Sequence record: LC739537.1
Direction: 5' to 3' (one strand)
Source: Escherichia phage phiWec188
DNA length: 64,000 nt
The notes below the pieces were generated by a model. It did no database searches and was not told the DNA's origin. It saw nothing but the letters and a program-made list of their open reading frames with translations. Numbering within the stretch: position 1 is the first letter of the stretch; the number at the start of each line of letters is the position of its first letter. Positions 28,723 through 55,570 of the stretch are shown one piece after another. The translations under genes and the position numbers were made by a program.

Positions 28723-28835
28723 GATGTGTCCTATTAAGTATTTAGTATTTAGTGGATTGTGCGTTTTAGGAGTCGCACCCCTCCCTCTTAGAAGGAACCA
28801 GGCAAGGTCTTCAAAGATACCGCTGGCGCGATATT

Positions 28836-28914
28836 TGGAGGCGGGAATCGGATTCGAACCGATGATCTCCAGCATATGAAACTGGCGAGGACGACCAAAC
28901 TCCTCTATCCCGCT
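28836..28914 (-). tRNA. tRNA-Met (anticodon CAT)
   Basis: Manual fold: acceptor stem, D-stem GAGG/CCTC, anticodon stem CCAGT/GCTGG with loop TTCATAT, T-arm ATCGG-TTCGAAT-CCGAT, encoded CCA. Position 1:72 is A-C mismatched. Confidence 0.65.
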
Positions 28915-28918
28915 ATTA

Positions 28919-28991
28919 GGTGTCCCGTGCTGGATTCGAACCAGCATCACAATAGTTGTGGATCTCTTATCCTGTAAGTCTAACGGGAAAC
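28919..28991 (-). tRNA. tRNA-like element / probable tRNA pseudogene
   Basis: Canonical T-arm GCTGG-TTCGAAT-CCAGC and 6/7-bp acceptor stem, but no 5-7-5 anticodon stem-loop can be drawn (CACAA-CTA-TTGTG has a 3-nt loop). Confidence 0.3.
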
Positions 28992-29065
28992 TGGTTGTTT
29001 CGACAAGAATCGAACTTGTATCTCACGATTATCAGTCGTGGGTTCTACCATTGAACTACGAAACA
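28992..29065 (-). tRNA. tRNA-Ile (anticodon GAT)
   Basis: Acceptor TGTTTCG/CGAAACA, D-stem GTTC/GAAC, anticodon stem CACGA/TCGTG with loop CTGATAA, T-arm ACAAG-TTCGATT-CTTGT, CCA encoded. Confidence 0.7.
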
Positions 29066-29071
29066 TTTAAT

Positions 29072-29146
29072 TGGTCAGCATGGAGAATTTCGAAATCTCG
29101 GCCCCCTCGTCCCAAACGAGGTGCTCTGCCACTGAGCTACACGCTG
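29072..29146 (-). tRNA. tRNA-Pro (anticodon TGG)
   Basis: D-arm GCTC-AGTGGCA-GAGC, anticodon stem CCTCG/CGAGG with loop TTTGGGA, CCA encoded; T-stem has one T-T mismatch. Confidence 0.6.
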
Positions 29147-29346
29147 TTATTAAAAAATCTCACGTCTTATACAAGCTAACCTTTTGCCTGACGCATGAAA
29201 TTTAAATACATTCTAAAGGTACACCGTAAAAGATTGTCGGGGCGATACTTCAAAAACATACCGATCCGTAAATCGATAATCAGACAAACTTCGACGGCTC
29301 CTCGTTTTTAACTTCACACTTAAGGTAGTGACTCACCTTTGTTATA

Positions 29347-29422
29347 TGGCTGGTCTGTCTGGATTTGAACCAAACCTACGACAGTCAAAGTGTCGTGTGC
29401 TACCGGACTACACTACAAACCA
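29347..29422 (-). tRNA. tRNA-Gln (anticodon TTG)
   Basis: Acceptor TGGTTTG/CAGACCA, anticodon stem CGACA/TGTCG with loop CTTTGAC, T-arm TTTGG-TTCAAAT-CCAGA, discriminator G, CCA. Confidence 0.7.
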
Positions 29423-29512
29423 TTTAATGAAGGGCAACCAGAAGAGGTGTGAGAGAAGGAGAAAACCATAAGTAAAAGAGAAAGTTTTCTGGCAACCCTT
29501 TATTAAATAATT

Positions 29513-29586
29513 TGGAGCGTTCTACGAGTTTCGAACTCGTGCCGCCGACTTGGAAGGACGGAATGCTACCGCTACACCAAGAACGC
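29513..29586 (-). tRNA. tRNA-Gly (anticodon TCC), one mismatch in anticodon stem
   Basis: Acceptor GCGTTCT/AGAACGC, anticodon loop CTTCCAA, T-arm ACGAG-TTCGAAA-CTCGT, discriminator T, CCA; anticodon stem CCGTC/GTCGG has a T-T pair. Confidence 0.55.
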
Positions 29587-30082
29587 CCTACATCTTTACT
29601 ATACTACATTTTACTATCAGTTGTCAATAGTTTTATTGGGTGGGACAGTGACGAGTATCCCATTGGGTGACTAACCCTACGTTCGGTTGTGATTAATCTC
29701 CTGGGTGTCGCTTGCAACACTGGAAAACTCTCACGTCGATGGGAGAATCCGCTTCTTCTTTACCCCATCCAACCCTACTCCGGTCAAGTTTCAGGTGACT
29801 CTTTTTGTGATCAACACAATACTAAGAACACTGTCTTTCGAGCAGACCTTGTGCACAGGATACGACGATCAATCACAGTGCTCTTAATGTTGTGTTGTGA
29901 ATATTAACCTCGGAACTCATTACCGCGCTTCGGCTCGACCTTATTACAGGTTAGTGAATGTCTTTCTTCCGCTTACATTCAATAAATTTGCTTTCTTCAC
30001 AACGATAAGAACACTTAACAGAAGATAGGTCTGATTGCCTCGGATGATTTCTCAGTAGCCTAAATGTTCTTACCTGTTATGT

Positions 30083-30158
30083 TGGTGCTCCAAGTAGGAC
30101 TCGAACCTACGACCTCATGCTTACAAGGCAAGTGCTCTACCAACTGAGCTATTGAAGC
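30083..30158 (-). tRNA. tRNA-Thr (anticodon TGT)
   Basis: D-arm GCTC-AGTTGGTA-GAGC, anticodon loop CTTGTAA, T-arm GTAGG-TTCGAGT-CCTAC, CCA; overall very close to enterobacterial tRNA-Thr as I recall it. Confidence 0.7.
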
Positions 30159-30277
30159 GTATTGCGCCCCTTCAGCCATGCTTGATGTTGACCAGAACAC
30201 AGTTAAACTGTGGGAGGAGGAACACCGCAGGGGGCTTCAGTTGGACGACTTACAGGGAGCGACCCTGTTTCTTTTCT

Positions 30278-30354
30278 GGGACTCGGCAGGATTCGATACC
30301 TGCAATTCCAGAAGCCTCTTGGCGACTGAGGGTTTACCTTAACTCTACAAGTCC
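30278..30354 (-). tRNA. tRNA-like element (atypical, no canonical anticodon arm, no encoded CCA)
   Basis: 7-bp acceptor stem GGACTTG/CGAGTCC and T-arm-like GCAGG-TATCGAAT-CCTGC (8-nt loop), but the central region does not fold into a 5-7-5 anticodon arm. Confidence 0.25.
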
Positions 30355-30510
30355 ATAATTCTTAAATACTTTGGAGCCTTACTGACAAACCGTTAGTTTG
30401 TAACATAGCGTATTTCCATTCTGGGGCACCGCCTGTGAATGTAATTCCAATACAAACTTTCTCAAGATCAAACCAATTATCAAATAACATAAGAACCTCC
30501 AGTTATAATT

Positions 30511-30594
30511 TGGTGTGAGATGATGGATTCGAACCACCGCGCCTTTCAGAACAGATTTACAGTCTGCTGCAATCGACCACTCTGCCAATCTCAC
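30511..30594 (-). tRNA. tRNA-Tyr (anticodon GTA)
   Basis: Perfect acceptor stem GTGAGAT/ATCTCAC, anticodon stem GCAGA/TCTGT with loop CTGTAAA, long variable arm, T-arm GGTGG-TTCGAAT-CCATC, CCA. Confidence 0.7.
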
Positions 30595-30719
30595 AAAATT
30601 ATTTTTAAAGTAGCCAGTATTCGCGGTACTGACTATGCGGTATCGGGGGATGGTGAGAGCCATCTGCCGAAAGTTTACTCTGTTAAAGTAAGAAACAACA
30701 AGCTACATTAAAAACAACT

Positions 30720-30805
30720 TGGCGGTAGATGTAGGACTCGAACCTACACGCCGTTTCCGACTACAGTTTAGCAAACTGTCGTGGCTACCATTTCACCAAT
30801 CTACC
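30720..30805 (-). tRNA. tRNA-Ser (anticodon GCT)
   Basis: Acceptor GGTAGAT/ATCTACC, anticodon stem ACAGT/ACTGT with loop TTGCTAA, long variable arm, T-arm GTAGG-TTCGAGT-CCTAC, discriminator G, CCA. Confidence 0.7.
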
Positions 30806-30811
30806 TAAATT

Positions 30812-30901
30812 TGGAGGAAGGTAATGGAGTCGAACCATCACCGTATCTCTACAATGGGCCAGGGTTCAAATCTGGTTGCGTACCACTACGCCCTACCTTC
30901 C
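30812..30901 (-). tRNA. tRNA-Ser (anticodon TGA)
   Basis: Acceptor GGAAGGT/ACCTTCC, anticodon loop TTTGAAC on stem CCAG/CTGG, long variable arm, T-arm GATGG-TTCGACT-CCATT, CCA. Confidence 0.6.
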
Positions 30902-31136
30902 ATACATTTAATCTAACATAAAACGATGTTGATTGTCAACACCTTTTAAAACATTTTATTATGAATGGTGACTCCACCAACCCCCGTTCTCCACGAACGG
31001 TACTCTTCGAGCAATCTACCCTTGCAATCAAACGTTGTACACCGTTAGCTTGCTCATGCATATTTGCCTCATTCTCTGCCAACCATGATCAGTGGTAGGG
31101 TTCAAATCACTTGAGCTAATTCATACTAAAATGTTC

Positions 31137-31211
31137 TGGTGTCTTTACAAGGAATCGAACCTTGACTAAGAGTTTAGAAGACTCCTGTGCTATCCATTAC
31201 ACCATAAAGAC
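31137..31211 (-). tRNA. tRNA-Arg (anticodon TCT)
   Basis: Acceptor GTCTTTA/TAAAGAC, D-arm GTGT-AATGGATA-GCAC, anticodon loop CTTCTAA, T-arm CAAGG-TTCGATT-CCTTG, CCA. Confidence 0.7.
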
Positions 31212-31213
31212 GT

Positions 31214-31288
31214 TGGTGGCCCTGACTGGTTTCGATCCAGTTGCCTATCGGTTATGAGCCGACTGCTCTCCCATTGAGCTACAGGGCC
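31214..31288 (-). tRNA. tRNA with CAT anticodon (Met or lysidine-type Ile2)
   Basis: Acceptor GGCCCTG/CAGGGCC, D-arm GCTC-AATGGGA-GAGC, anticodon loop CTCATAA, T-arm ACTGG-ATCGAAA-CCAGT, CCA; acceptor resembles Ile2-type tRNAs. Confidence 0.6.
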
Positions 31289-31545
31289 GTAAATGTGGTA
31301 ACAGAGACGTTGAAAGTAGTAGGAAGTAGCTACCATTCCTCGGACGTAAGCCCAACATTCAGCGTAAATGTTCTTGAGCCGAAGCTTTTCCATATGTTCT
31401 TTGGTAGCTAACCTCCGAACAAGTAGCCTCTAACATCTCAACGATGCAAATCCGTCTTAACAACAGTCAACGACCCTGTTACCACACTTGATAAAGCGTA
31501 TCTTAACAAAATAAGACACGCTTGTCAATACTTATTTCAAATATT

Positions 31546-40060: not shown

Positions 40061-40068
40061 TCTGTAAG

Positions 40069-40090
40069 CCGCCCTTCGGGGCGGTTATTG
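40069..40090 (+). terminator. rho-independent terminator (weak T tract)
   Basis: CCGCCC-TTCG-GGGCGG hairpin followed by TTATT. Confidence 0.45.
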
Positions 40091-40117: not shown

Positions 40118-40996
40118 ATGTTCGTTAAATCTTTTAAATCTGCACTTCCGATGGTTGCTGGTGATAATGCTTCTGTAGCGTCTCTGAACGAGTTCAACGA
40201 ATTTCCGATTGACTTTGTACCTGCTGAAGGATCTCAAGCCCATACTATTGGTCTGGTTCGTTTTGAAGATGATGGGAAATACGTAAAAGAGTTCTCCGAT
40301 CTGGAACTCCTCCAGGTTGGTCAATCTGTTAAGAAAGTTGACAAGAAGAAAGTTAAACGTCTTCTTAATGAGCGCCTGGAAGAAATTCGAGTAGATATGG
40401 AAAGCCAAGGTCAAGAATTCTTTGTCGCTAAAGAAGACATGAAAGTCCTGAAAGCTGATATTGAATTTGGTCTGCTCCCAGAAACCGAACCGGAAGATTT
40501 CTTCAATTATGTGGTTCTGGATAAAACAACCAACCTGTTCTATGTGATCAACGGTAGTAAGAAAGTAGCGGAAGCTATTACTTGCTTCTTCCGTAATGTT
40601 TTGGGGACTTTCCCCTCTGTAGGTTTTAGTGTGCACGAAGAAGCAATTGTCAAAGGTTTTGGTACATTGTTGAAAGAACACGAAGCTGATCGCCTTACTC
40701 TTGGCAATTACATTAAACTGGAAGATAGTGAAGGTGTTGTTGTCTGGACGAAAGAATCTCTTTACGATTCCAAAGCAATCGAACTTAAAGAAGATGGTAA
40801 AGATGTTGTCGCTATTGGCTTGGAGTACGATGGTGTGCTGGAGTTTGTCGTAGATAAAGAGTTGAAGTTGAGCAAGCTTCGTTTCCCTAAATACTTCAAC
40901 GATGACGAAGGCTCTATTGAAGCATCTACTCTACTTTGCTTCAACGAGATTCGTGGTTTGATGGCAGATCTGACGAAAGCAACTATTCTTAAATAA
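40118..40996 (+). CDS. RdgC-like recombination-associated protein (putative)
   Basis: 292 aa; C-terminal segment (LEYDGVLEFVVDKELKLSKLRF...DEGSIEA) resembles the RdgC C-terminal pattern as recalled; size matches RdgC (~300 aa). Confidence 0.4.
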   Translation: MFVKSFKSALPMVAGDNASVASLNEFNEFPIDFVPAEGSQAHTIGLVRFEDDGKYVKEFSDLELLQVGQSVKKVDKKKVKRLLNERLEEIRVDMESQGQEFFVAKEDMKVLKADIEFGLLPETEPEDFFNYVVLDKTTNLFYVINGSKKVAEAITCFFRNVLGTFPSVGFSVHEEAIVKGFGTLLKEHEADRLTLGNYIKLEDSEGVVVWTKESLYDSKAIELKEDGKDVVAIGLEYDGVLEFVVDKELKLSKLRFPKYFNDDEGSIEASTLLCFNEIRGLMADLTKATILK

Positions 40997-41000
40997 GTGC

Positions 41001-41029
41001 TTGACTTGCAGACTTCATTGTGATACTAT
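41001..41029 (+). promoter_or_regulatory. sigma70-type promoter
   Basis: TTGACT (41001-41006), 17-bp spacer, TACTAT (41024-41029). Confidence 0.5.
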
Positions 41030-41057
41030 GCCTACCTACTCAACGAGGTAGGCTTTT
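41030..41057 (+). terminator. rho-independent terminator (overlapping promoter -10/+1)
   Basis: Perfect 8-bp stem GCCTACCT/AGGTAGGC with 8-nt loop followed by TTTT, then AGGAGG RBS of next gene. Confidence 0.5.
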
Positions 41058-41067
41058 AGGAGGTGTT

Positions 41068-41277
41068 ATGAAAAAGACAATTGTGGCGTTACTGTTGGCA
41101 ACAAGTTTCTCGGCAGCGGCTGGACAAACTACTCTCATTCTTTCGGATGAGGAAGTTAGCGGCAATACTAAATATTGTTTCTATTCCAACTCCATCTACG
41201 ACAAAGTTATCCAGATCTCTGCGAGTCGGCAATGTCCTTACACAAAAACATTCAGTACGGATGATGACGATGAATAA
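41068..41277 (+). CDS. small secreted protein (signal peptide, two Cys, acidic C-terminus)
   Basis: MKKTIVALLLATSFSAAAGQ signal peptide; ATG with AGGAGG RBS; track ORF begins at upstream alternative start 41020. Confidence 0.5.
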   Translation: MKKTIVALLLATSFSAAAGQTTLILSDEEVSGNTKYCFYSNSIYDKVIQISASRQCPYTKTFSTDDDDE

Positions 41278-41321
41278 TAGGGGGAATTATCAGCGGGTAC
41301 ATTTTAATAAAACCGGAAGAT

Positions 41322-42413
41322 TTGCACAAGTATGTTGACCTAAACACTGTTGTGGTTATCGATTATGACCAAGTGGCTTTCCAAGCAGCTTCTGCTGTAG
41401 AGAAGCGTCGTATATTGGCTAAACATGCAGCCTCCGGTTCCGAAAAAGAATTTGACAATAAGACAGAGTTTTGGGGTAAGAGTAAAACTGAAATTGGTGG
41501 TTGGCTTGGAGCATTGAATGCTAAACGAGAAGAGCAGGGTAAACGTCCTTTCACCAAAGAAGAGTTTGAAATTGTCGATGTGCAGTACGTACCAGACACT
41601 TTGTCACATGCTTTTCAAGCAGCTAAAACAAAAGTTCAAGCGATCTTAAAGCATTTAAGTTTAGAAAAATATTGCGGGGTTATTGGTGTAGGGAAAACCT
41701 TCCGACATGATTTTAAGATGCCTACCGAGTATAAATCTGAACGATCTGACATTAAGCCTTTACAACTATCCGATACCAAAGACTACTTGGTAGAGCAACA
41801 CAATGGGGATGTTGTTACGGTTATCGAAGCCGATGATGAATTAGAGAAGTACGGTTTCCAAGGTTACAAAGATTACAAACGCACAGGAAAATTCTCTTAC
41901 ATCCTGGCGTCAATAGATAAAGACAGCCTATCCACTCCAAGCATCCTCTTTAACTTCTACAAAGAAGACGGTGTATTCAAGAATCCAGATATCATCTTGA
42001 TAGACGAGTCCATCGGAGACTTGTGGATTGTTGAAAAGGGCAAGAAAAAAGAGGTGAAGGGTTGGGGATCTTTCTGGTTGGCCTATCAGATGCTGATGGG
42101 AGATAAAACGGATAGCATCCGTCCTTACCAGGATTTTGGTATTAAGTTTGGAGACGTTTCTTGCTTCAACTTGATATCTGAATGCAAGACCCAAGCTGAA
42201 CTTTTCCAGAAAGTGAAAGATACATTTTATACCTGGTTCCCTGAAGGTGTTAAATTTACATCTTGGGATCGGGAAGCAGTAGAATTAACAACCGATCAAT
42301 GGATCGAGACAATATTCCAACTTGTTTACATGAAGCGTTGGGATAACGATAACACAACTTTTGAGAGTATGCTTCAAGCGTACATTTCACAACAGGAGAC
42401 AATTAATGAGTAA
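41322..42413 (+). CDS. 5'-3' exonuclease / flap endonuclease (T5 D15 / T4 RNase H-like)
   Basis: 363 aa; segments TVIEADDELEKYG, ASIDKDSLS and GDKTDSIRPYQDFGIKFG resemble conserved acidic blocks of phage FEN-family exonucleases (recalled from T5 D15). Confidence 0.5.
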   Translation: MHKYVDLNTVVVIDYDQVAFQAASAVEKRRILAKHAASGSEKEFDNKTEFWGKSKTEIGGWLGALNAKREEQGKRPFTKEEFEIVDVQYVPDTLSHAFQAAKTKVQAILKHLSLEKYCGVIGVGKTFRHDFKMPTEYKSERSDIKPLQLSDTKDYLVEQHNGDVVTVIEADDELEKYGFQGYKDYKRTGKFSYILASIDKDSLSTPSILFNFYKEDGVFKNPDIILIDESIGDLWIVEKGKKKEVKGWGSFWLAYQMLMGDKTDSIRPYQDFGIKFGDVSCFNLISECKTQAELFQKVKDTFYTWFPEGVKFTSWDREAVELTTDQWIETIFQLVYMKRWDNDNTTFESMLQAYISQQETINE

Positions 42414-43371
42414 ATTAACAACAGAGCAGAAAGTAGAAATCATTAGCCTTAAAACACAAGGTCTTTCTTCTCGCCAGATCGCTGCATTAGTTCTCGGTAG
42501 CGCGACAAAGAAAAGTACAGTGAACGATTTCTTGGTTCGTGAAAACTCTGCCAACGCTGGAACTCCTAAAGTTAAACCAGAAGGTCCAGTAGTTAAAATT
42601 ATTGACGTTGAAACAGCACCAGAAATTGCGTATACTTTCCGTCGATTCAAAGCTTTTATCTCTCCTGATCAGGTGATTCGCCGTGGTTACTTGTTGTCCT
42701 ACTCTTCCGCAGATCTGCGTACTGCTGAAGTTGAAGGTAAGAACTTGGCAAGCTACCCTCTGTTCGATATTGATCACACAGACGATTGGGAACTGTGCCA
42801 AGACATTTGGAAGCTTCTGGATGAAGCTGATATCGTTGTAGCTCACAACGGTGTTAAATTTGACCGTGCTTATATTAACCAGCGTTTCGCATACCACGGA
42901 ATGGTTCCTCCATCGAACTATGTTGTGGTCGATACTCTGAAAGCAGCTAAGAAACAATTCTTCTTACCATCTAATTCTCTGAAAGAGATGGGTGCTTACT
43001 TTGAAACAGAGAGCGAAAAACTTGATAACGAAGGGTTCCCGTTGTGGAAGGCTTGTTGTGAAGGTGATCGTGATGCGTTTGAACGTATGCAAACTTACAA
43101 CGATGGTGATGTAGTTTCTCTGCGAGATCTGTACATTAAGATTCTGGCGTGGATTCCGCAACATCCTAACGTATCTGCTTACTACGAAGATACTAAAGTT
43201 CGTTGCTCTCGTTGTGGCAGTGCACATGTGAATGTACTGGCAGATAAGAAGTACCACACAGCAGTAAGTTCTTTTGATATTATTCGTTGTGAAGATTGTG
43301 GTGGACTTTCTCGTGGACGTGTTAACAGCCGTTCCAAAGATAAGATGAAAAATACCATTGTCGGGATTTAA
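42406..43371 (+). CDS. DnaQ-like (DEDD) 3'-5' exonuclease with N-terminal HTH
   Basis: ATG at 42406; N-terminal helix-turn-helix-like region (LSSRQIAALVLG), then exo motifs IIDVETAPE, VAHNGVKFD, YNDGDV; C-terminal Cys4 cluster. Confidence 0.5.
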   Translation: MSKLTTEQKVEIISLKTQGLSSRQIAALVLGSATKKSTVNDFLVRENSANAGTPKVKPEGPVVKIIDVETAPEIAYTFRRFKAFISPDQVIRRGYLLSYSSADLRTAEVEGKNLASYPLFDIDHTDDWELCQDIWKLLDEADIVVAHNGVKFDRAYINQRFAYHGMVPPSNYVVVDTLKAAKKQFFLPSNSLKEMGAYFETESEKLDNEGFPLWKACCEGDRDAFERMQTYNDGDVVSLRDLYIKILAWIPQHPNVSAYYEDTKVRCSRCGSAHVNVLADKKYHTAVSSFDIIRCEDCGGLSRGRVNSRSKDKMKNTIVGI

Positions 43372-43375
43372 TAAG

Positions 43376-43398
43376 AAAGGGGCTTCGGCCCCTTTTTT
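43376..43398 (+). terminator. rho-independent terminator
   Basis: AAAGGGGC-TTCG-GCCCC hairpin followed by TTTTTTC. Confidence 0.8.
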
Positions 43399-43408
43399 CA
43401 TTTAAGTG

Positions 43409-43437
43409 TTGACACAGAGAACTAATTGCGATACAAT
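43409..43437 (+). promoter_or_regulatory. strong sigma70-type promoter
   Basis: Consensus -35 TTGACA (43409-43414), 17-bp spacer, TACAAT (43432-43437). Confidence 0.6.
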
Positions 43438-46968: not shown

Positions 46969-47031
46969 ATTGACTTTAGTATGAGATTTAGTGTAGTATA
47001 GCAAAACGTTGGGGGAGGTGAGATTCCCCCT
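46969..47031 (+). promoter_or_regulatory. candidate promoter plus hairpin downstream of thyX
   Basis: TTGACT (46969-46974), then TAGTAT-like -10 about 18 bp on; GGGGGA-ggtgagat-TCCCCC hairpin followed by TTTAC. Confidence 0.3.
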
Positions 47032-52100: not shown

Positions 52101-52298
52101 ATGAAAGACCAAATGATTAATGGACCTCGTGTAACAGTTAGTCCTAAAACTTTTGCATCTCTTCTGGACGACACTGGTGAGGTTTATACTTACACAAGAG
52201 ATTCACTGCCTCTGCCTGAAAGTGCACAGGGTTCACGTTCGCTTTTTTATAAAGGTGTTCTTTTTACGGAAGCAAAAGAAGACAAGGAGACTAAATGA
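52101..52298 (+). CDS. hypothetical protein
   Basis: 65-aa ORF directly upstream of rmlB. Confidence 0.4.
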   Translation: MKDQMINGPRVTVSPKTFASLLDDTGEVYTYTRDSLPLPESAQGSRSLFYKGVLFTEAKEDKETK

Positions 52299-53287
52299 GA
52301 TACCTGGTAACAGGTGGTCTTGGTTTCATTGGGAGCGCCGTAGTGCGCTCTCTTTGTCAAGATCCTAAAAATGAAGTTTTTGTTATTGATAAAATGGGCT
52401 ATGCTGCTGACATTGAAAATGTCGGAGATATTACTCATGCGAAACTAAGCATGACAGATCTGGTCGATGAAGCACAAGTTAAAAACTTGGTTGTTGAGTG
52501 TAACCCTGATTTCATCATTCACTTGGCAGCAGAGAGTCATGTAGACAATTCGATCAAGAATCCACGAGCTTTTATCGACTCTAACATCATCGGTACATAT
52601 AATCTGTTAGAAGCTGCAAGGCTTCTTCCTAAGAACAAGCTGAAGATGTTTGTACACGTCTCTACAGACGAAGTGTACGGCGATATGGAGGACTCTGGTG
52701 CTCCCTTTACCGAAGAGACAGCTTATGCTCCTTCAAGCCCATACAGCGCGTCTAAGGCGGCATCTGATCACCTTGTCAAAGCTTGGCACCGTACTTACGA
52801 TTTACCTGTAGTGATAACCAACTGTTCCAATAACTTTGGGCCTTACCAACACCCTGAAAAATTGATTCCAAAAGTGATCACGAACATCTTGACAGACCAA
52901 CCTATTCCCGTATACGGTAAAGGCGATCAGGTACGAGATTGGCTTTTCGTAGAAGATCATGCACGAGCTATTATTTTGGCAGCAACGGGCGGGGAAGTAG
53001 GACAAACCTACAACGTAGGTACACGCAATCCTAAAACAAACATGGAAATCATTTACATGATTTGTGATTACATGGATGCTGTTCACCCATCCTTCGGGAC
53101 ATACCCTGCTTCCGGTTTGATTAGTTTTGTTGAAGATCGTAAAGGTCATGACTTGCATTATGAAATCAATCCTGCTAAGATTGAATCTGAACTGGGTTGG
53201 AAAGCAAACTCTACATTCGAAGAAGACTTGTACTCTACGATTGAATGGTATTTAAATAATCCTCAATGGTGGAGTATGAAGATTTAA
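52295..53287 (+). CDS. rmlB: dTDP-glucose 4,6-dehydratase
   Basis: N-terminus [18 protein letters not shown] (Rossmann GxxGxxG), [21 protein letters not shown] (SDR catalytic YxxxK); near-collinear with bacterial RmlB. Confidence 0.85.
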
Positions 53288-53295
53288 GGAGGGTT

Positions 53296-54174
53296 ATGAA
53301 AGGTATTATTTTAGCGGGAGGAAGTGGAACCCGCCTACATCCTGTAACACGCAGTGTGAGCAAGCAATTGCTCCCTGTGTATGACAAACCTATGATTTAT
53401 TATCCTTTATCAGTCTTGATGTTGTCAGATATTAAGGATATCTTAATCATCACAACCCCAGGCGATCAGGAAGATTTTGAGTATCTTCTTGGAGATGGGT
53501 CTATGTTTGGAATAAAGATCACTTACGCAATGCAGTCTGAACCACGAGGTCTTGCAGATGCTTTCATCATCGGTAAAGATTTTATTGGGGAAGATTCTGT
53601 TGCTCTTATTTTAGGGGATAACTTGTTCTTCGGACAAAGTTTCGGAAAACTCCTTATCCAAGCCAGCGAAATGGTGGATGTTTGGGGTGGAGCTTGTATC
53701 TTCGGGTATCTGGTGAAAGATCCTGAACGATTCGGTGTTGTTGAGTTTGGAAGTAATCGCCAAGCTATCTCTATTGAAGAGAAACCGGAACATCCCAAAT
53801 CAGACTATGCAGTCACGGGTTTGTATTTCTATGACAACTCTGTTGTTCAACGTGCATTGGAAGTAACTCCTTCCGATCGTGGAGAACTGGAGATCACAGA
53901 TATCAATCGCAGCTACCTCGAAGACAGGAAGTTACAAGTGGAAGTTCTTGGAAGAGGATTCACTTGGTTGGATACAGGGACACACGCCAGTCTAATGGAA
54001 GCAGGTCAATTCGTGCAGACTATTGAGAACTGCCAAGGATTGAAGATTGCGTGCCTGGAAGAGATTGCTTTCAAAAAAGGGTGGATTTCTTTAGAGACTT
54101 TGGTGTATCATGGCAACTCATTGAAGAAAACAGAGTACGGGCAATATCTGTTAAAATTAGCGGAGGGTAAATGA
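53296..54174 (+). CDS. rmlA: glucose-1-phosphate thymidylyltransferase
   Basis: [39 protein letters not shown] closely matches the RmlA N-terminal signature; ATG at 53296 with AAGGAGGG RBS. Confidence 0.85.
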
Positions 54175-54731
54175 AAATAAAAGAATTAAGTATTCCTGGT
54201 CTGGTTGTCTTTAAACCTCAAGTTTACAAAGATGATCGTGGTTCCTTCACGGAGACGTTTAACGAGAAGATTTACGAAGAGGTTATTGGCAAACAAACGT
54301 TTGTTCAGGATAACCATTCATTCTCTACTTTAGGTGTTCTTCGCGGAATGCACTTTCAAGTAAATAACCCGCAAGGTAAGCTTGTACGTTGCACACGAGG
54401 TGAAGTTTTTGACGTGGCTGTAGATCTTCGTGAAGGTAGTCCAACCTTCGGACAATGGGAAGGTGTGATTCTTAGTGGGTGTAACAATAAACAGTTGTGG
54501 ATTCCACCTGGCTTTGCACATGGTTTTGTTGTAACCTCTTATGAAGCCAACTTTGAATACAAGTGCACCAACTACTACGATCCGGCATCTGAACGTAGTT
54601 TGTTGTGGAACGATCCTACTGTGAATATTGATTGGGGTTTTGATATGATTTTCAATGATGAGAATTTTGTACCCATCATTTCGGAAAAGGATGCACAAGC
54701 TAAAACACTGAAGGAGCTTATGGGATCATGA
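54171..54731 (+). CDS. rmlC: dTDP-4-dehydrorhamnose 3,5-epimerase
   Basis: 186 aa cupin-type protein; DDRGSF, RGMHFQ and [11 protein letters not shown] match RmlC conserved blocks. Confidence 0.8.
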
Positions 54732-55570
54732 AAACATATTTAGTATTGGGTGGTAATGGTCAATTAGGTCAGGCACTGCGTAAAGTGGTGCCGGAGAATG
54801 TGACTTTGGTGTATCCAGAAAAGCGTGTAGATATCACCAGTTTTGAAGCTGTGCGGAAAGCGATCATGGAAACCCCAAATATTAACGGTGTTATCAACTG
54901 TGCGGCATACACTGCTGTGGACAAAGCCGAGACAGATGTTGATGCAGCTATGGCTGTAAATTTACACGGGGCAGCTAATATTGCTGCCTTCTGTAAGGCT
55001 TGGGATATTGACATGGTGCATATTTCTACTGACTATGTGTTCAACAGCGATAAACCGTTGTTCCATCAGGATGAACCCAACCCTATCAATGTTTACGGGT
55101 TATCTAAAAGTTTGGGTGAAGCTGCTGTTCGTGGTATCTACCATAAAGCTTTTATTATCCGCACGGCTTCTGTGTATAGCGAGTTTGGTAACAACTTCCT
55201 GAAGACTATGGTATCTCGTTACAACGATGGTCAAAGAAACTTCTCGGTAGTTGCAGATCAAACATCTCGACCAACTTATGCCCCAGATTTGGCTAAGATG
55301 ATTTTCCAAGTGTTGGAAACAGGATATAACACCCGTACTTTGCATTACGCTGGGAACATCACTGTTTCGTGGCACCAGTTCGCAAAAATGATATTGACAC
55401 GTATGCCTGAATCTGTTATTATACACCCGACCTCTGCTGCAACCTATAATTCGGCAGCGATGCGACCAGCAAAGTCTATACTAATTACGTCTGGTTGGAA
55501 CGAACCTTCAAGCGTCGGACAAGGTATTGAAGAATCTTTAGCAGTATTACTTAATAAGGAGAGAGCATGA
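54728..55570 (+). CDS. rmlD: dTDP-4-dehydrorhamnose reductase
   Basis: 280 aa; NCAAYTAVDKAE, STDYVF, NVYGLSK...GE, GNNFLKTM and RPTYA correspond to RmlD conserved segments. Confidence 0.8.
   Translation: MKTYLVLGGNGQLGQALRKVVPENVTLVYPEKRVDITSFEAVRKAIMETPNINGVINCAAYTAVDKAETDVDAAMAVNLHGAANIAAFCKAWDIDMVHISTDYVFNSDKPLFHQDEPNPINVYGLSKSLGEAAVRGIYHKAFIIRTASVYSEFGNNFLKTMVSRYNDGQRNFSVVADQTSRPTYAPDLAKMIFQVLETGYNTRTLHYAGNITVSWHQFAKMILTRMPESVIIHPTSAATYNSAAMRPAKSILITSGWNEPSSVGQGIEESLAVLLNKERA

What the first reader, a model, noticed from the sequence alone, without database searches (positions are those of the whole stretch)
41001..41277. Moron-like cassette: consensus-like promoter, overlapping terminator hairpin and a small secreted protein
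A near-consensus sigma70 promoter (TTGACT-17-TACTAT) directly abuts a perfect 8-bp stem terminator whose 5' arm overlaps the predicted transcription start, so read-through from the upstream RdgC-like gene would be terminated while the promoter drives the next gene. That gene encodes a 70-aa protein with a classical signal peptide, two cysteines and an acidic tail. A periplasmic phage protein of this kind could block a receptor or transporter (superinfection exclusion) or inhibit a host periplasmic enzyme.
Basis: partly seen in the sequence, partly recalled or inferred. Interest (0 to 1): 0.4.

Follow-up and report, generated by a model that had tools for sequence, protein, structure and literature searches.

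The report
Conserved phage promoter-hairpin junction, secreted protein
This is the conserved start of a three-gene operon in a large E. coli phage: a host-type promoter overlaps an RNA hairpin that only transcripts arriving from upstream can form, and the first gene encodes a small exported protein of unknown function, so it is not a mobile "moron" cassette.

Summary
The window is Escherichia phage phiWec190, a Phapecoctavirus of the Stephanstirmvirinae. The protein is 69 aa, not 70, and the ATG is at 41068.

- **Promoter.** TTGACT-17-TGaTACTAT is very probably real. TTGAC, TG and TA..AT are invariant in 10 diverged relatives while the spacer varies. The pattern occurs 4 times in the window against 0.03 expected.
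- **Hairpin.** The 8-bp hairpin starts directly after the -10 hexamer. Relatives always keep a hairpin overlapping the promoter core, in two architectures and with different arm sequences and G·U wobbles. Read-through RNA from rdgC therefore carries it and promoter-initiated RNA does not. The U-tract is short (4 U) and not conserved, so this is at best a weak terminator or a 3'-end stabiliser.
- **Not a moron.** No terminator follows the ORF. The promoter drives ORF69, an exonuclease and a DNA-polymerase exonuclease subunit, up to a canonical terminator at 43379-43398. ORF69 is found in 135 phage records, the same number and organism breakdown as the records carrying this RdgC. Its GC content is ordinary and dN/dS is 0.07-0.28.
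- **Protein.** It belongs to phrog_4641 (phi92 gp086). It has a cleavable Sec signal peptide, two invariant Cys, a confidently predicted 4-strand beta domain with no known structural relative, and an acidic tail. Distant homologues lie in chromosomal islands next to defence genes.
- **Function.** A role in superinfection exclusion is only inferred.

The parts
40067..40086 (+). GC-rich hairpin (AGCCGCCC-TTCG-GGGCGGTT, tail TTATTGTG) in the gap before rdgC. It is terminator-like, so rdgC is bracketed by two hairpins.
40118..40996 (+). rdgC-like gene (292 aa), the upstream gene whose transcripts would carry the complete hairpin
   Evidence: PF04381 E = 8e-19; phrog_724
41001..41029 (+). sigma70-type promoter: -35 TTGACT (41001-06), 17-nt spacer, extended -10 TG (41021-22), -10 TACTAT (41024-29)
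   Evidence: a promoter is annotated at the orthologous site in FBKp34
41036..41038 (+). Predicted transcription start, 7-9 nt after the -10 hexamer and inside the hairpin's 5' arm. This is an inference, not a measurement.
   Evidence: Geometry combined with established sigma70 start-site spacing
41030..41053 (+). RNA hairpin: 8-bp perfect stem GCCTACCT/AGGTAGGC with 8-nt loop ACTCAACG. It is complete only in read-through RNA.
41054..41057 (+). Short T-run (TTTT) after the hairpin; weak and not conserved in relatives
41058..41063 (+). Shine-Dalgarno AGGAGG of ORF69
   Evidence: conserved
41068..41277 (+). ORF69 (69 aa plus stop), phrog_4641 / phi92 gp086 family. Signal peptide at 41068-41121 (18 aa, cleavage AAA|GQ). 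Mature 51-aa acidic beta protein at 41122-41274 with Cys37 and Cys56.
41280..41284 (+). SD (GGGGG) of the exonuclease gene, 3 nt after the ORF69 stop
41289..42413 (+). Exonuclease gene (phrog_107). It probably starts at the non-canonical ATC at 41289, not at the annotated TTG at 41322.
42406..43371 (+). DNA polymerase exonuclease subunit (phrog_403, RNase_H_2), the last gene of the inferred operon
43379..43398 (+). Canonical intrinsic terminator GGGGC-TTCG-GCCCC plus TTTTTT, the inferred end of the transcription unit. The next promoter (TTGACA-17-TACAAT) follows at 43409.

Best explanation
The region is the conserved 5' end of an early or DNA-metabolism transcription unit of a Stephanstirmvirinae phage. 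It is not an autonomous cassette.

**Transcription.** Host sigma70 RNA polymerase initiates at the extended -10 promoter at 41001-41029, about position 41036-41038. It then transcribes ORF69, the exonuclease and the polymerase exonuclease subunit as far as the strong terminator at 43379-43398.

**Hairpin.** The 8-bp hairpin begins immediately after the -10 hexamer, so its 5' arm lies upstream of, or across, the start site.
- RNA coming from rdgC contains the whole hairpin (here plus UUUU). That RNA is partly terminated and/or given a nuclease-resistant 3' end.
- RNA started at the promoter lacks the 5' arm and cannot form the hairpin, so the promoter is insulated from its own overlapping stop signal.

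**Protein.** ORF69 is exported by Sec, cleaved after Ala18 and probably disulfide-bonded between Cys37 and Cys56 in the periplasm. The result is a 51-aa acidic four-strand beta protein.

**Function (inferred).** Its most likely role is an envelope-level, exclusion-type function. It would bind a periplasmic or envelope component, or an incoming phage's penetration machinery, to protect the infected cell from secondary infection.

**Shown by sequence analysis:** the elements, their conservation, the operon layout, the export signal and the fold prediction.

**Inferred:** promoter activity, the exact start site, termination or stabilisation by the hairpin, the disulfide, and the biological function.
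For: **Identity of the window.** 100% identical to Escherichia phage phiWec190.

**Promoter.**
- TTGAC, TG and TA..AT are invariant in 10 relatives while the spacer is variable.
- The pattern occurs 4 times against 0.03 expected.
- The FBKp34 record annotates a promoter at the same place.
- The related phage rV5 is reported to have sigma70-consensus promoters throughout its genome, 11 of them with extended -10 regions (PMC3606486).

**Hairpin.**
- Unique perfect inverted repeat; -14.7 kcal/mol, z = -2.5.
- 91.9% of cells are paired against 30-62% in slid controls.
- One pair switches U-A / C-G with a U·G intermediate, and another changes C-G to U·G.
- Phage 05F01 has an unrelated 8-bp stem with an 8-nt loop at the identical position.
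- The FBKp34, L023, L024 and L027 lineage instead wraps a hairpin of again different sequence around the -10. L024 and L027 differ by an A-to-G change that gives G·U.
- In every architecture the predicted start lies in or after the hairpin.

**Operon.**
- No hairpin lies between 41054 and 43372 apart from weak in-gene ones.
- The exonuclease SD is 3 nt after the ORF69 stop.

**Core-gene status.** 135 records carry ORF69 and 135 carry this RdgC, with the same organism breakdown. Synteny holds in all 17 relatives inspected.

**Coding.** dN/dS is 0.07-0.28.

**Export.** Position -1 is Ala in 37/39 members and -3 is small in 39/39; there are exactly 2 Cys in 39/39. SignalP 3.0 gives 1.000 on phi92 gp086.

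**Fold.** pLDDT is 93-96 over residues 21-60, with 4 strands.

**Exclusion-type role (circumstantial only).** Homologues at 38-47% identity lie beside a small tyrosine recombinase and a type IV restriction-like HNH (PADLOC mREase_IV, 2e-23) in a Klebsiella variicola island. An IS2-cut remnant lies beside an AIPR abortive-infection gene in E. coli.
Against: - No transcript data exist for this phage group in the searched literature.
- The U-tract is only 4 U. It fails the scan's terminator rule and is absent in L025, L026 and FKP3, which keep the hairpin. Intrinsic termination therefore cannot be the universally conserved function.
- Formal covariation within the close type-A group is modest: one compensatory pair, and 6 of 500 shuffles reach the observed score.
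- Elsewhere in the window, promoter-hairpin cassettes place the hairpin 9-12 nt after the -10, that is, inside the transcript (46970, 24891, 12757). Exclusion of the hairpin from the promoter's own RNA is therefore not a genome-wide rule.
- The protein's function has no direct evidence. There is no Pfam, PADLOC, NCBIfam or PDB relative, and every homologue is uncharacterised.
Confidence: 0.55

Rival explanations
1. Moron. ORF69 would be a horizontally acquired, self-contained promoter-gene-terminator cassette inserted between two older genes and expressed independently of the phage programme.
For: - It has its own promoter.
- It encodes a small secreted protein unrelated in function to its DNA-metabolism neighbours.
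- Distant homologues sit in cargo positions of chromosomal islands, so the family does move between replicons.
Against: - No terminator lies downstream. The next gene's SD follows 3 nt after the stop.
- ORF69 is found in 135 records, matching the 135 that carry this RdgC. All 17 relatives inspected have it directly after RdgC.
- GC content is 0.414 against a background of 0.415 +/- 0.032.
- Its divergence matches that of its neighbours: 71% and 67% identity, against 84% and 65% for RdgC.
Confidence: 0.07
2. The inverted repeat acts at the DNA level as an operator. A dimeric phage or host protein would bind across -6 to +18 and switch the promoter off (or on) as infection proceeds. The RNA hairpin would be incidental.
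For: - The repeat overlaps the promoter core in every lineage, either just after or around the -10.
- The U-tract is not conserved.
- The position relative to the -10 is fixed.
Against: - Changes on one arm are G·U-compatible transitions that break DNA symmetry: phi92, L014, L022, L026, and L027 against L024.
- Arm sequences are completely replaced in 05F01 and in the type-B lineage.
- The motif occurs only once in the 64-kb window, even allowing 3 mismatches, whereas a regulator would normally have several sites.
Confidence: 0.12
3. The hairpin does not terminate. It is only a processing or 3'-protection structure that stabilises rdgC mRNA, which also has a hairpin at 40067-40086 upstream. 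RNA polymerase reads through fully, and the promoter merely boosts the downstream genes.
For: - The hairpin is retained where the U-tract is lost (L025, L026, FKP3).
- rdgC is bracketed by two hairpins.
- There are only 4 U here.
Against: - Most relatives keep 3-5 U directly after the stem.
- A hairpin of -12.7 kcal/mol followed by UUUU is within the range of weak intrinsic terminators (established knowledge).
- This rival overlaps with the best explanation and differs only in degree.
Confidence: 0.2
4. ORF69 is not an exclusion factor. It would be a periplasmic modulator of the phage's own cycle (for example a lysis-timing or antiholin-like sensor) or an inhibitor of a host periplasmic enzyme or envelope-stress pathway. 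Alternatively, its main role would be to deliver ribosomes to the weak AUC/AUU start of the exonuclease.
For: - It is a core gene kept in every member of a strictly virulent subfamily, which fits a role in the phage's own cycle.
- It is tightly coupled to the exonuclease, whose start is a conserved AUU or AUC in 14 of 14 loci.
Against: - It is not next to lysis genes.
- Purifying selection acts on the whole mature domain. Cys37, Cys56, T61 and F62 are invariant across homologues that are not followed by an exonuclease. This argues for a protein function rather than a mere leader ORF.
- Chromosomal homologues sit among defence genes.
Confidence: 0.25

Closest known systems
phi92 gp086 / phAPEC8_00122 / PHROG phrog_4641 (uncharacterised)
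   Same: - Orthologues at 67-71% identity, in the same position between RdgC and the exonuclease.
- The same signal peptide; phi92 gp086 already carries a SignalP annotation.
   Different: Nothing of substance. This is the same gene in another member of the subfamily, and no member has a known function.
T4 Spackle (gp61.3; Pfam PF25676), a periplasmic superinfection-exclusion protein that inhibits the gp5 tail lysozyme
   Same: A small Sec-exported early protein of a virulent myovirus that acts in the periplasm. This comparison is by analogy and rests on my own knowledge.
   Different: - The window protein gives no Pfam hit. Only 1 of 39 family members touches PF25676, at E = 0.013.
- The predicted fold is all-beta, whereas Spackle is helical (own knowledge).
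- ORF69 is not a member of this family.
T5 Llp and lambdoid Cor, receptor-blocking lipoproteins
   Same: Small exported phage proteins that protect the infected cell or the progeny by masking a receptor (own knowledge).
   Different: ORF69 has no lipobox Cys. Its cleavage site is AXA|G, an SPase I site, in 37 of 39 members.
Promoter-proximal terminators mapped by ONT-cappable-seq in Pseudomonas phages (Putzeys et al. 2024, PMC10914365)
   Same: Termination sites found immediately downstream of phage promoters in compact intergenic regions.
   Different: - There the terminator lies within the 5' UTR and attenuates the promoter's own transcript.
- Here the hairpin overlaps the start site, so the promoter's own transcript should escape it.
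Canonical 'terminator then promoter' junctions, such as 43379-43437 in this same window
   Same: Both separate two transcription units within about 100 nt.
   Different: At 41001-41057 the order is reversed and the two elements are interleaved within 57 nt.

Membership tests
Moron (Hendrix-type autonomous accessory cassette) | Own promoter upstream of the gene | tested here: met
   Conserved sigma70 promoter with extended -10. Activity was not measured.
Moron (Hendrix-type autonomous accessory cassette) | Own terminator directly downstream of the gene | tested here: not met
   No hairpin follows the stop. The next gene's SD lies 3 nt later, and the first intergenic terminator is at 43379.
Moron (Hendrix-type autonomous accessory cassette) | Present in some related phages and absent in others, between genes that are otherwise adjacent | tested here: not met
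   135 records carry ORF69 and 135 carry this RdgC, with the same organism breakdown. All 17 relatives inspected are syntenic.
Moron (Hendrix-type autonomous accessory cassette) | Deviant base composition | tested here: not met
   GC 0.414 against 0.415 +/- 0.032.
Intrinsic (Rho-independent) terminator | Stable GC-rich hairpin shortly after the stop codon of the upstream gene | tested here: met
   8 bp with 5 G-C pairs, -12.7 to -14.7 kcal/mol, 34 nt after the rdgC stop.
Intrinsic (Rho-independent) terminator | U-rich tract (typically at least 5-6 U) immediately 3' of the stem | tested here: inconclusive
   Only UUUU here. It fails the scan rule and is absent in L025, L026 and FKP3.
Intrinsic (Rho-independent) terminator | Measured 3' ends or reduced read-through | not testable with these tools
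   Needs in vitro transcription or 3'-end mapping.
sigma70 promoter with extended -10 | -35 TTGACA-like, 17 +/- 1 spacer, TGn, -10 TATAAT-like | tested here: met
   TTGACT-17-(TGa)TACTAT. These elements are invariant in relatives.
sigma70 promoter with extended -10 | Initiation by host holoenzyme at the predicted +1 | not testable with these tools
   No transcriptome was found for this subfamily.
Sec / SPase I secretory protein | Positively charged n-region, hydrophobic h-region of 7-15 residues, small residues at -3 and -1 | tested here: met
   MKK, then TIVALLLATSFS, then AAA|G. Best 10-residue Kyte-Doolittle mean is 2.5. Position -1 is Ala in 37/39 and -3 is A/V/S/T/C in 39/39. The orthologue scores 1.000 with SignalP 3.0.
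Sec / SPase I secretory protein | Demonstrated export and cleavage | not testable with these tools
   Needs PhoA or BlaM fusions, or N-terminal sequencing.
Bacterial lipoprotein (Llp, Cor or o-spanin type) | Lipobox L-[AS]-[GA]-C at the cleavage site | tested here: not met
   There is no Cys before residue 37.
T4 Spackle family (PF25676) | Sequence match to the family model | tested here: not met
   The window protein gives no hit. Only 1 of 39 relatives reaches E = 0.013.
PHROG phrog_4641 | Profile match over the full length | tested here: met
   E = 5.8e-23, residues 1-63 against profile positions 1-68 of 68.

The most novel reading that the evidence does not exclude
The phrog_4641 family would be a new class of periplasmic phage-host conflict effector. 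It is a Sec-exported, disulfide-locked beta protein of about 48 residues with an acidic tail and no structural relative. It is shared between virulent Stephanstirmvirinae, where it would be made from the first minutes of infection, and chromosomal defence islands. It would block an envelope step of infection by other phages.

In addition, the promoter and overlapping hairpin would form a selected 'one-way valve'. It would stop upstream transcription without touching its own transcript, and it would have been re-invented in two architectures.
Probability: 0.2. Interest if true: 0.6.

Novelty: new member of a known kind. Interest (0 to 1): 0.3.

Why it matters
Practically, the analysis corrects the picture of this locus in three ways.
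- It is a conserved operon start, not a mobile cassette.
- ORF69 is a core gene of about 135 sequenced therapeutic-candidate phages (the phAPEC8 and phi92 group). It is exported to the periplasm and has no known function or fold relative.
- Because homologues also sit in bacterial defence islands, ORF69 is a reasonable candidate for a new envelope-level exclusion factor. That is cheap to test and relevant to designing phage cocktails.

The hairpin that overlaps the transcription start is a tidy example of how dense phage genomes interleave a stop signal and a start signal. It could serve as a compact insulator part. None of this is very surprising to a specialist.

Tried and rejected
1. **SD/AUG sequestration in read-through RNA.** The window's MFE fold pairs the -10 region with GGUGUUAUGA. 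Across 14 loci, however, the unpaired probability of SD..AUG shows no consistent difference between read-through and promoter-initiated RNA. Rejected.
2. **Hairpin as a 5'-terminal mRNA stabiliser.** This needs a start site upstream of 41030, that is, 0-1 nt after the -10, which is incompatible with sigma70 geometry. Rejected.
3. **Known RNA family.** Rfam finds nothing in 40500-41800.
4. **Repeated operator.** The palindrome is unique in the window, even allowing 3 mismatches.
5. **Fold-based function.**
   - Foldseek against the PDB gives a best E of 0.1 and TM below 0.5, with generic small beta-barrels.
   - BFVD returns only uncharacterised phage homologues.
   - The PDB sequence-profile search finds nothing.
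   - Pfam, NCBIfam and PADLOC give nothing above threshold. The mini-MOMP, TrbK and Spackle hits rest on the signal peptide or lie far below the cut-offs.
6. **'Gram-negative pili assembly chaperone'.** Two database records give relatives this name. No chaperone appears in the top 50 PDB matches listed by Foldseek, and the domain has only 4 strands. Not supported.
7. **Giant HYR-repeat proteins.** They top the exhaustive phmmer list. Their scores are sums of many weak stretches in Cys/Ser/Thr-rich repeats, so I treat them as unreliable. The small 1-3-repeat secreted proteins (P0059, P0063, P0068) do share the G-E-x-x-S-G-x-x-K-x-C-x-Y...C-P motif.
8. **Literature.** Searches for transcriptomes of this subfamily, or for any study of gp086, found nothing.
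Full report
**What the window is.** The 2.5 kb around the finding is 100% identical to Escherichia phage phiWec190 (LC739539.1), a 150.7-kb Phapecoctavirus of the Stephanstirmvirinae. It is 76-98% identical to six further records. The finding lies in a long plus-strand block of early and DNA-metabolism genes. In order these are a DNA ligase, a MazG-like pyrophosphohydrolase, RdgC, the small ORF, an exonuclease, a DNA-polymerase exonuclease subunit, and further on the nrdA and nrdB genes.

**Check of the observation.**
- -35 TTGACT at 41001-06, a 17-nt spacer ending TGa, and -10 TACTAT at 41024-29.
- A perfect 8-bp inverted repeat, GCCTACCT (41030-37) and AGGTAGGC (41046-53), around an 8-nt loop.
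- TTTT at 41054-57, AGGAGG at 41058-63, ATG at 41068 and TAA at 41275-77, followed in frame by TAG.

The product is 69 aa, not 70: MKKTIVALLLATSFSAAA|GQTT...C37...C56...STDDDDE. The upstream gene is a genuine RdgC (PF04381, E = 8e-19).

The generic scans do not single the site out. The promoter scores 9/12, there are 28 such sites against 23 expected, and the hairpin misses the terminator rule because it has only 4 T. The more specific pattern TTGAC-N15-TGnTAnnAT occurs 4 times in the window against 0.03 expected.

**The promoter is conserved as a promoter.** I collected the orthologous gap from these sources:
- isolated phages: phi92, phAPEC8, vB_EcoM_01, VEcB, PsgM04F, Klebsiella phages FKP3, 05F01, FBKp34 and KP13-16, and Citrobacter phage Tr1;
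- metagenomic contigs L010-L015 and L022-L027.

In ten 'type A' loci TTGAC, the TG of the extended -10 and TA..AT are invariant. The spacer, the hairpin loop and the region before the SD vary. In 05F01 the -35 lies inside the end of rdgC. The FBKp34 record annotates a promoter at this spot. For the related rV5 group, sigma70-consensus promoters, many with extended -10 regions, were predicted throughout the genome (PMC3606486). I found no transcriptome for this subfamily.

**The hairpin is conserved as a structure that overlaps the promoter core.**
- *Type A.* The stem starts at the first base after the -10 hexamer in all loci.
  - Position 4 is U-A in four sequences, C-G in six and U·G in phi92.
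  - Position 6 is C-G, or U·G in three sequences.
  - Position 5 is mismatched in two sequences.
  - Overall 91.9% of cells pair, against 30-62% when the partner is slid.
  - This covariation is modest: one compensatory pair, and 6 of 500 shuffles reach the score.
- *05F01.* It has a completely different 8-bp stem with an 8-nt loop (GGCCUCAU...AUGAGGCU) at exactly the same place.
- *Type B (FBKp34, KP13-16, L023, L024, L027).* This lineage has yet other stems, and the arms flank the -10. An example is CAGGUGGAG-N10-CUCCACCUG. L024 and L027 differ by an A-to-G change that gives G·U.
- *Consequences.* The G·U-compatible changes on the sense strand, and the single occurrence of the motif in 64 kb, favour an RNA structure over a protein operator. 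With sigma70 geometry the start site falls 7-9 nt after the -10, at 41036-38. That is inside the 5' arm in type A and at the end of the 3' arm in type B. In every lineage, RNA arriving from rdgC contains the hairpin and RNA initiated at the promoter does not.

**Whether it is a terminator is less clear.** The tail is UUUU here, UUUUU in phAPEC8, UUUAA or UUCAUU in others, and UCAAAU, AAACAG or AUUAUG in L025, L026 and FKP3. The unambiguous terminators of this region look different: GGGGC-UUCG-GCCCC followed by six U. The element is therefore at best a weak, partial terminator. Its conserved role may be a protective 3' stem-loop for rdgC mRNA, which also has a hairpin just upstream at 40067-86. 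A translational role was tested and rejected, because accessibility of SD and AUG does not differ consistently between the two RNA species.

**It is not a moron.** Four tests bear on this.
1. *Terminator.* No terminator follows the ORF. The next gene's SD starts 3 nt after the stop. The only intergenic plus-strand hairpins between 40000 and 43520 are at 40067, 41030 and 43379. The promoter therefore heads a unit of ORF69, the exonuclease and the polymerase exonuclease subunit, ending at 43379-43398. The next promoter (TTGACA-17-TACAAT) follows at 43409.
2. *Distribution.* tblastn finds ORF69 in 135 phage records and this RdgC in 135, with identical organism breakdowns. All 17 relatives inspected have ORF69 directly after RdgC.
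3. *Composition.* GC content (0.414) equals the background of 0.415 +/- 0.032.
4. *Divergence.* It tracks the neighbours, and dN/dS is 0.07-0.28.

**The protein.**
- *Family.* It matches phrog_4641 (unknown function, E = 6e-23). Its orthologue phi92 gp086 is already annotated with a SignalP 3.0 signal peptide of probability 1.000.
- *Conserved features, in a 39-member alignment.*
  - Position -1 is Ala in 37 members and -3 is A/V/S/T/C in all 39.
  - The mature part has exactly two Cys in all 39.
  - T61 and F62 are invariant, and most members end in an acidic tail.
  - There is no lipobox.
- *Structure.* AlphaFold2 with 29 sequences gives pLDDT 93-96 for residues 21-60, with four beta strands.
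  - Foldseek finds no significant PDB match; the best has E = 0.1 and TM below 0.5.
  - In BFVD it finds only uncharacterised phage proteins.
- *Other searches.* A profile search of PDB sequences, Pfam, NCBIfam and PADLOC gives nothing meaningful.
- *Wider family.* The exhaustive search finds about 40 representatives. They are mostly 62-94-aa proteins with a signal peptide, plus a few with 2-3 tandem copies of the domain. None carries an informative name.

**Context of distant homologues.** Homologues at 38-47% identity occur outside these phages.
- In a Klebsiella variicola chromosome, and on IMG/VR contigs, the gene follows a roughly 200-aa tyrosine recombinase. It precedes another secreted protein and an HNH protein that matches type IV restriction enzymes (PADLOC mREase_IV, 2e-23), at the edge of an integrated element.
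- In E. coli an IS2-truncated remnant lies beside an AIPR abortive-infection gene in an integrase-bounded island.

This is the only evidence bearing on function. It is circumstantial and points to envelope-level phage exclusion. I commit to that as the most likely role, at roughly one chance in three, ahead of a lysis-timing role, a host-enzyme-inhibitor role or a ribosome-delivery role.

**Comparison with known systems.**
- It works like a compact transcription-unit junction. Unlike the usual terminator-then-promoter order seen at 43379-43437, the promoter comes first and the stop structure is interleaved with the start site.
- Promoter-proximal terminators mapped in Pseudomonas phages lie inside the 5' UTR instead (PMC10914365).
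- By analogy the protein resembles T4 Spackle, or T5 Llp and Cor, as a small exported phage protein. It fails the membership tests for both: no sequence match and an all-beta fold for the first, and no lipobox for the second.

**Verdict.** The locus is an ordinary but neatly organised operon start, with a core gene of unknown function that is already present and annotated as secreted in public records. Interest is modest at 0.3. It would rise if the protein family proved to be a new periplasmic exclusion effector.

Noticed in passing
window 41278-41325 (exonuclease gene start); also L002-L006, L014, L015, L022, L023, L025, L026, L029, L030: The exonuclease gene appears to start at a conserved non-canonical codon.
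- In 14 of 14 loci a strong SD (AGGAGG or GGGGG) directly after the small ORF's stop is followed 4-5 nt later by ATT or ATC (window: ATC at 41289). No ATG, GTG or TTG is available there.
- The 11 codons before the annotated TTG at 41322 (ISGYILIKPED) are conserved as protein. Over the 16 codons after the start, the variable columns by codon position are 6, 2 and 15.
- The 'TTG' is CTG, CTT, TTA or CTC in relatives.
- Public records mis-start or truncate the gene. The phi92 gp085 note reads 'No RBS identified', and phAPEC8 annotates a 690-nt gene.
- This suggests IF3-sensitive or translationally coupled low-level expression.
   Followed up: partly
window 46970-47030 (+), 24891-24830 (-), 12757-12700 (-): Three other consensus-like promoters (TTGACT/TTGACA, 17-18 nt spacer, TAnnAT) are each followed by a GC-rich hairpin plus T-run that starts 9-12 nt after the -10. 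In these cases the hairpin would lie at the very 5' end of the promoter's own transcript. This is a recurrent promoter-then-hairpin layout whose logic differs from that of the finding.
   Followed up: no
window 52295-55570 (+): The phage carries a complete dTDP-rhamnose pathway: a dTDP-glucose 4,6-dehydratase (rffG), a glucose-1-phosphate thymidylyltransferase, a 3,5-epimerase (rfbC) and a reductase (annotated 'rbfD'). This comes from the phiWec190 record.
   Followed up: no
window ~28830-31290 (-): A cluster of 11 tRNA genes (Met, Ile, Pro, Gln, Gly, Thr, Tyr, Ser x2, Arg, Met) lies between the structural and early gene blocks. This comes from the phiWec190 record.
   Followed up: no
L020 5444-8236 (Klebsiella variicola CP153984.1); L017; L028 4854-5054 (E. 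coli NZ_AP027829.1): - Chromosomal homologues of the small secreted protein form a conserved module: a roughly 200-aa tyrosine recombinase, then the secreted protein, then on the opposite strand a second secreted protein, an unknown protein and a type IV restriction-like HNH protein.
- The E. coli copy is truncated by IS2 and lies beside an AIPR gene.
   Followed up: partly
L024 1731-2921, L027 1734-2786; L003 3452-3574; L004 1797-2162: The slot between the small ORF and the exonuclease is variable in some relatives. L024 and L027 have a 350-396-aa CapR/DUF723 protein there (possibly a homing endonuclease). Some annotations place short ORFs there, which probably result from the mis-called exonuclease start.
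   Followed up: no
record OR584014.1 (L001) and MG0656xx 'Campylobacter phage' records: Near-identical Stephanstirmvirinae genomes are deposited as a Pseudomonas coronafaciens phage (PsgM04F, 97% identical to this window) and as Campylobacter jejuni phages. These host assignments look doubtful for phages of this E. coli group.
   Followed up: no
window 43379-43398: The clearest intrinsic terminator of the region (GGGGC-TTCG-GCCCC plus T6) was not listed by the consensus terminator scan. It was found by folding and by my own stem search. The scan's list is therefore incomplete.
   Followed up: yes
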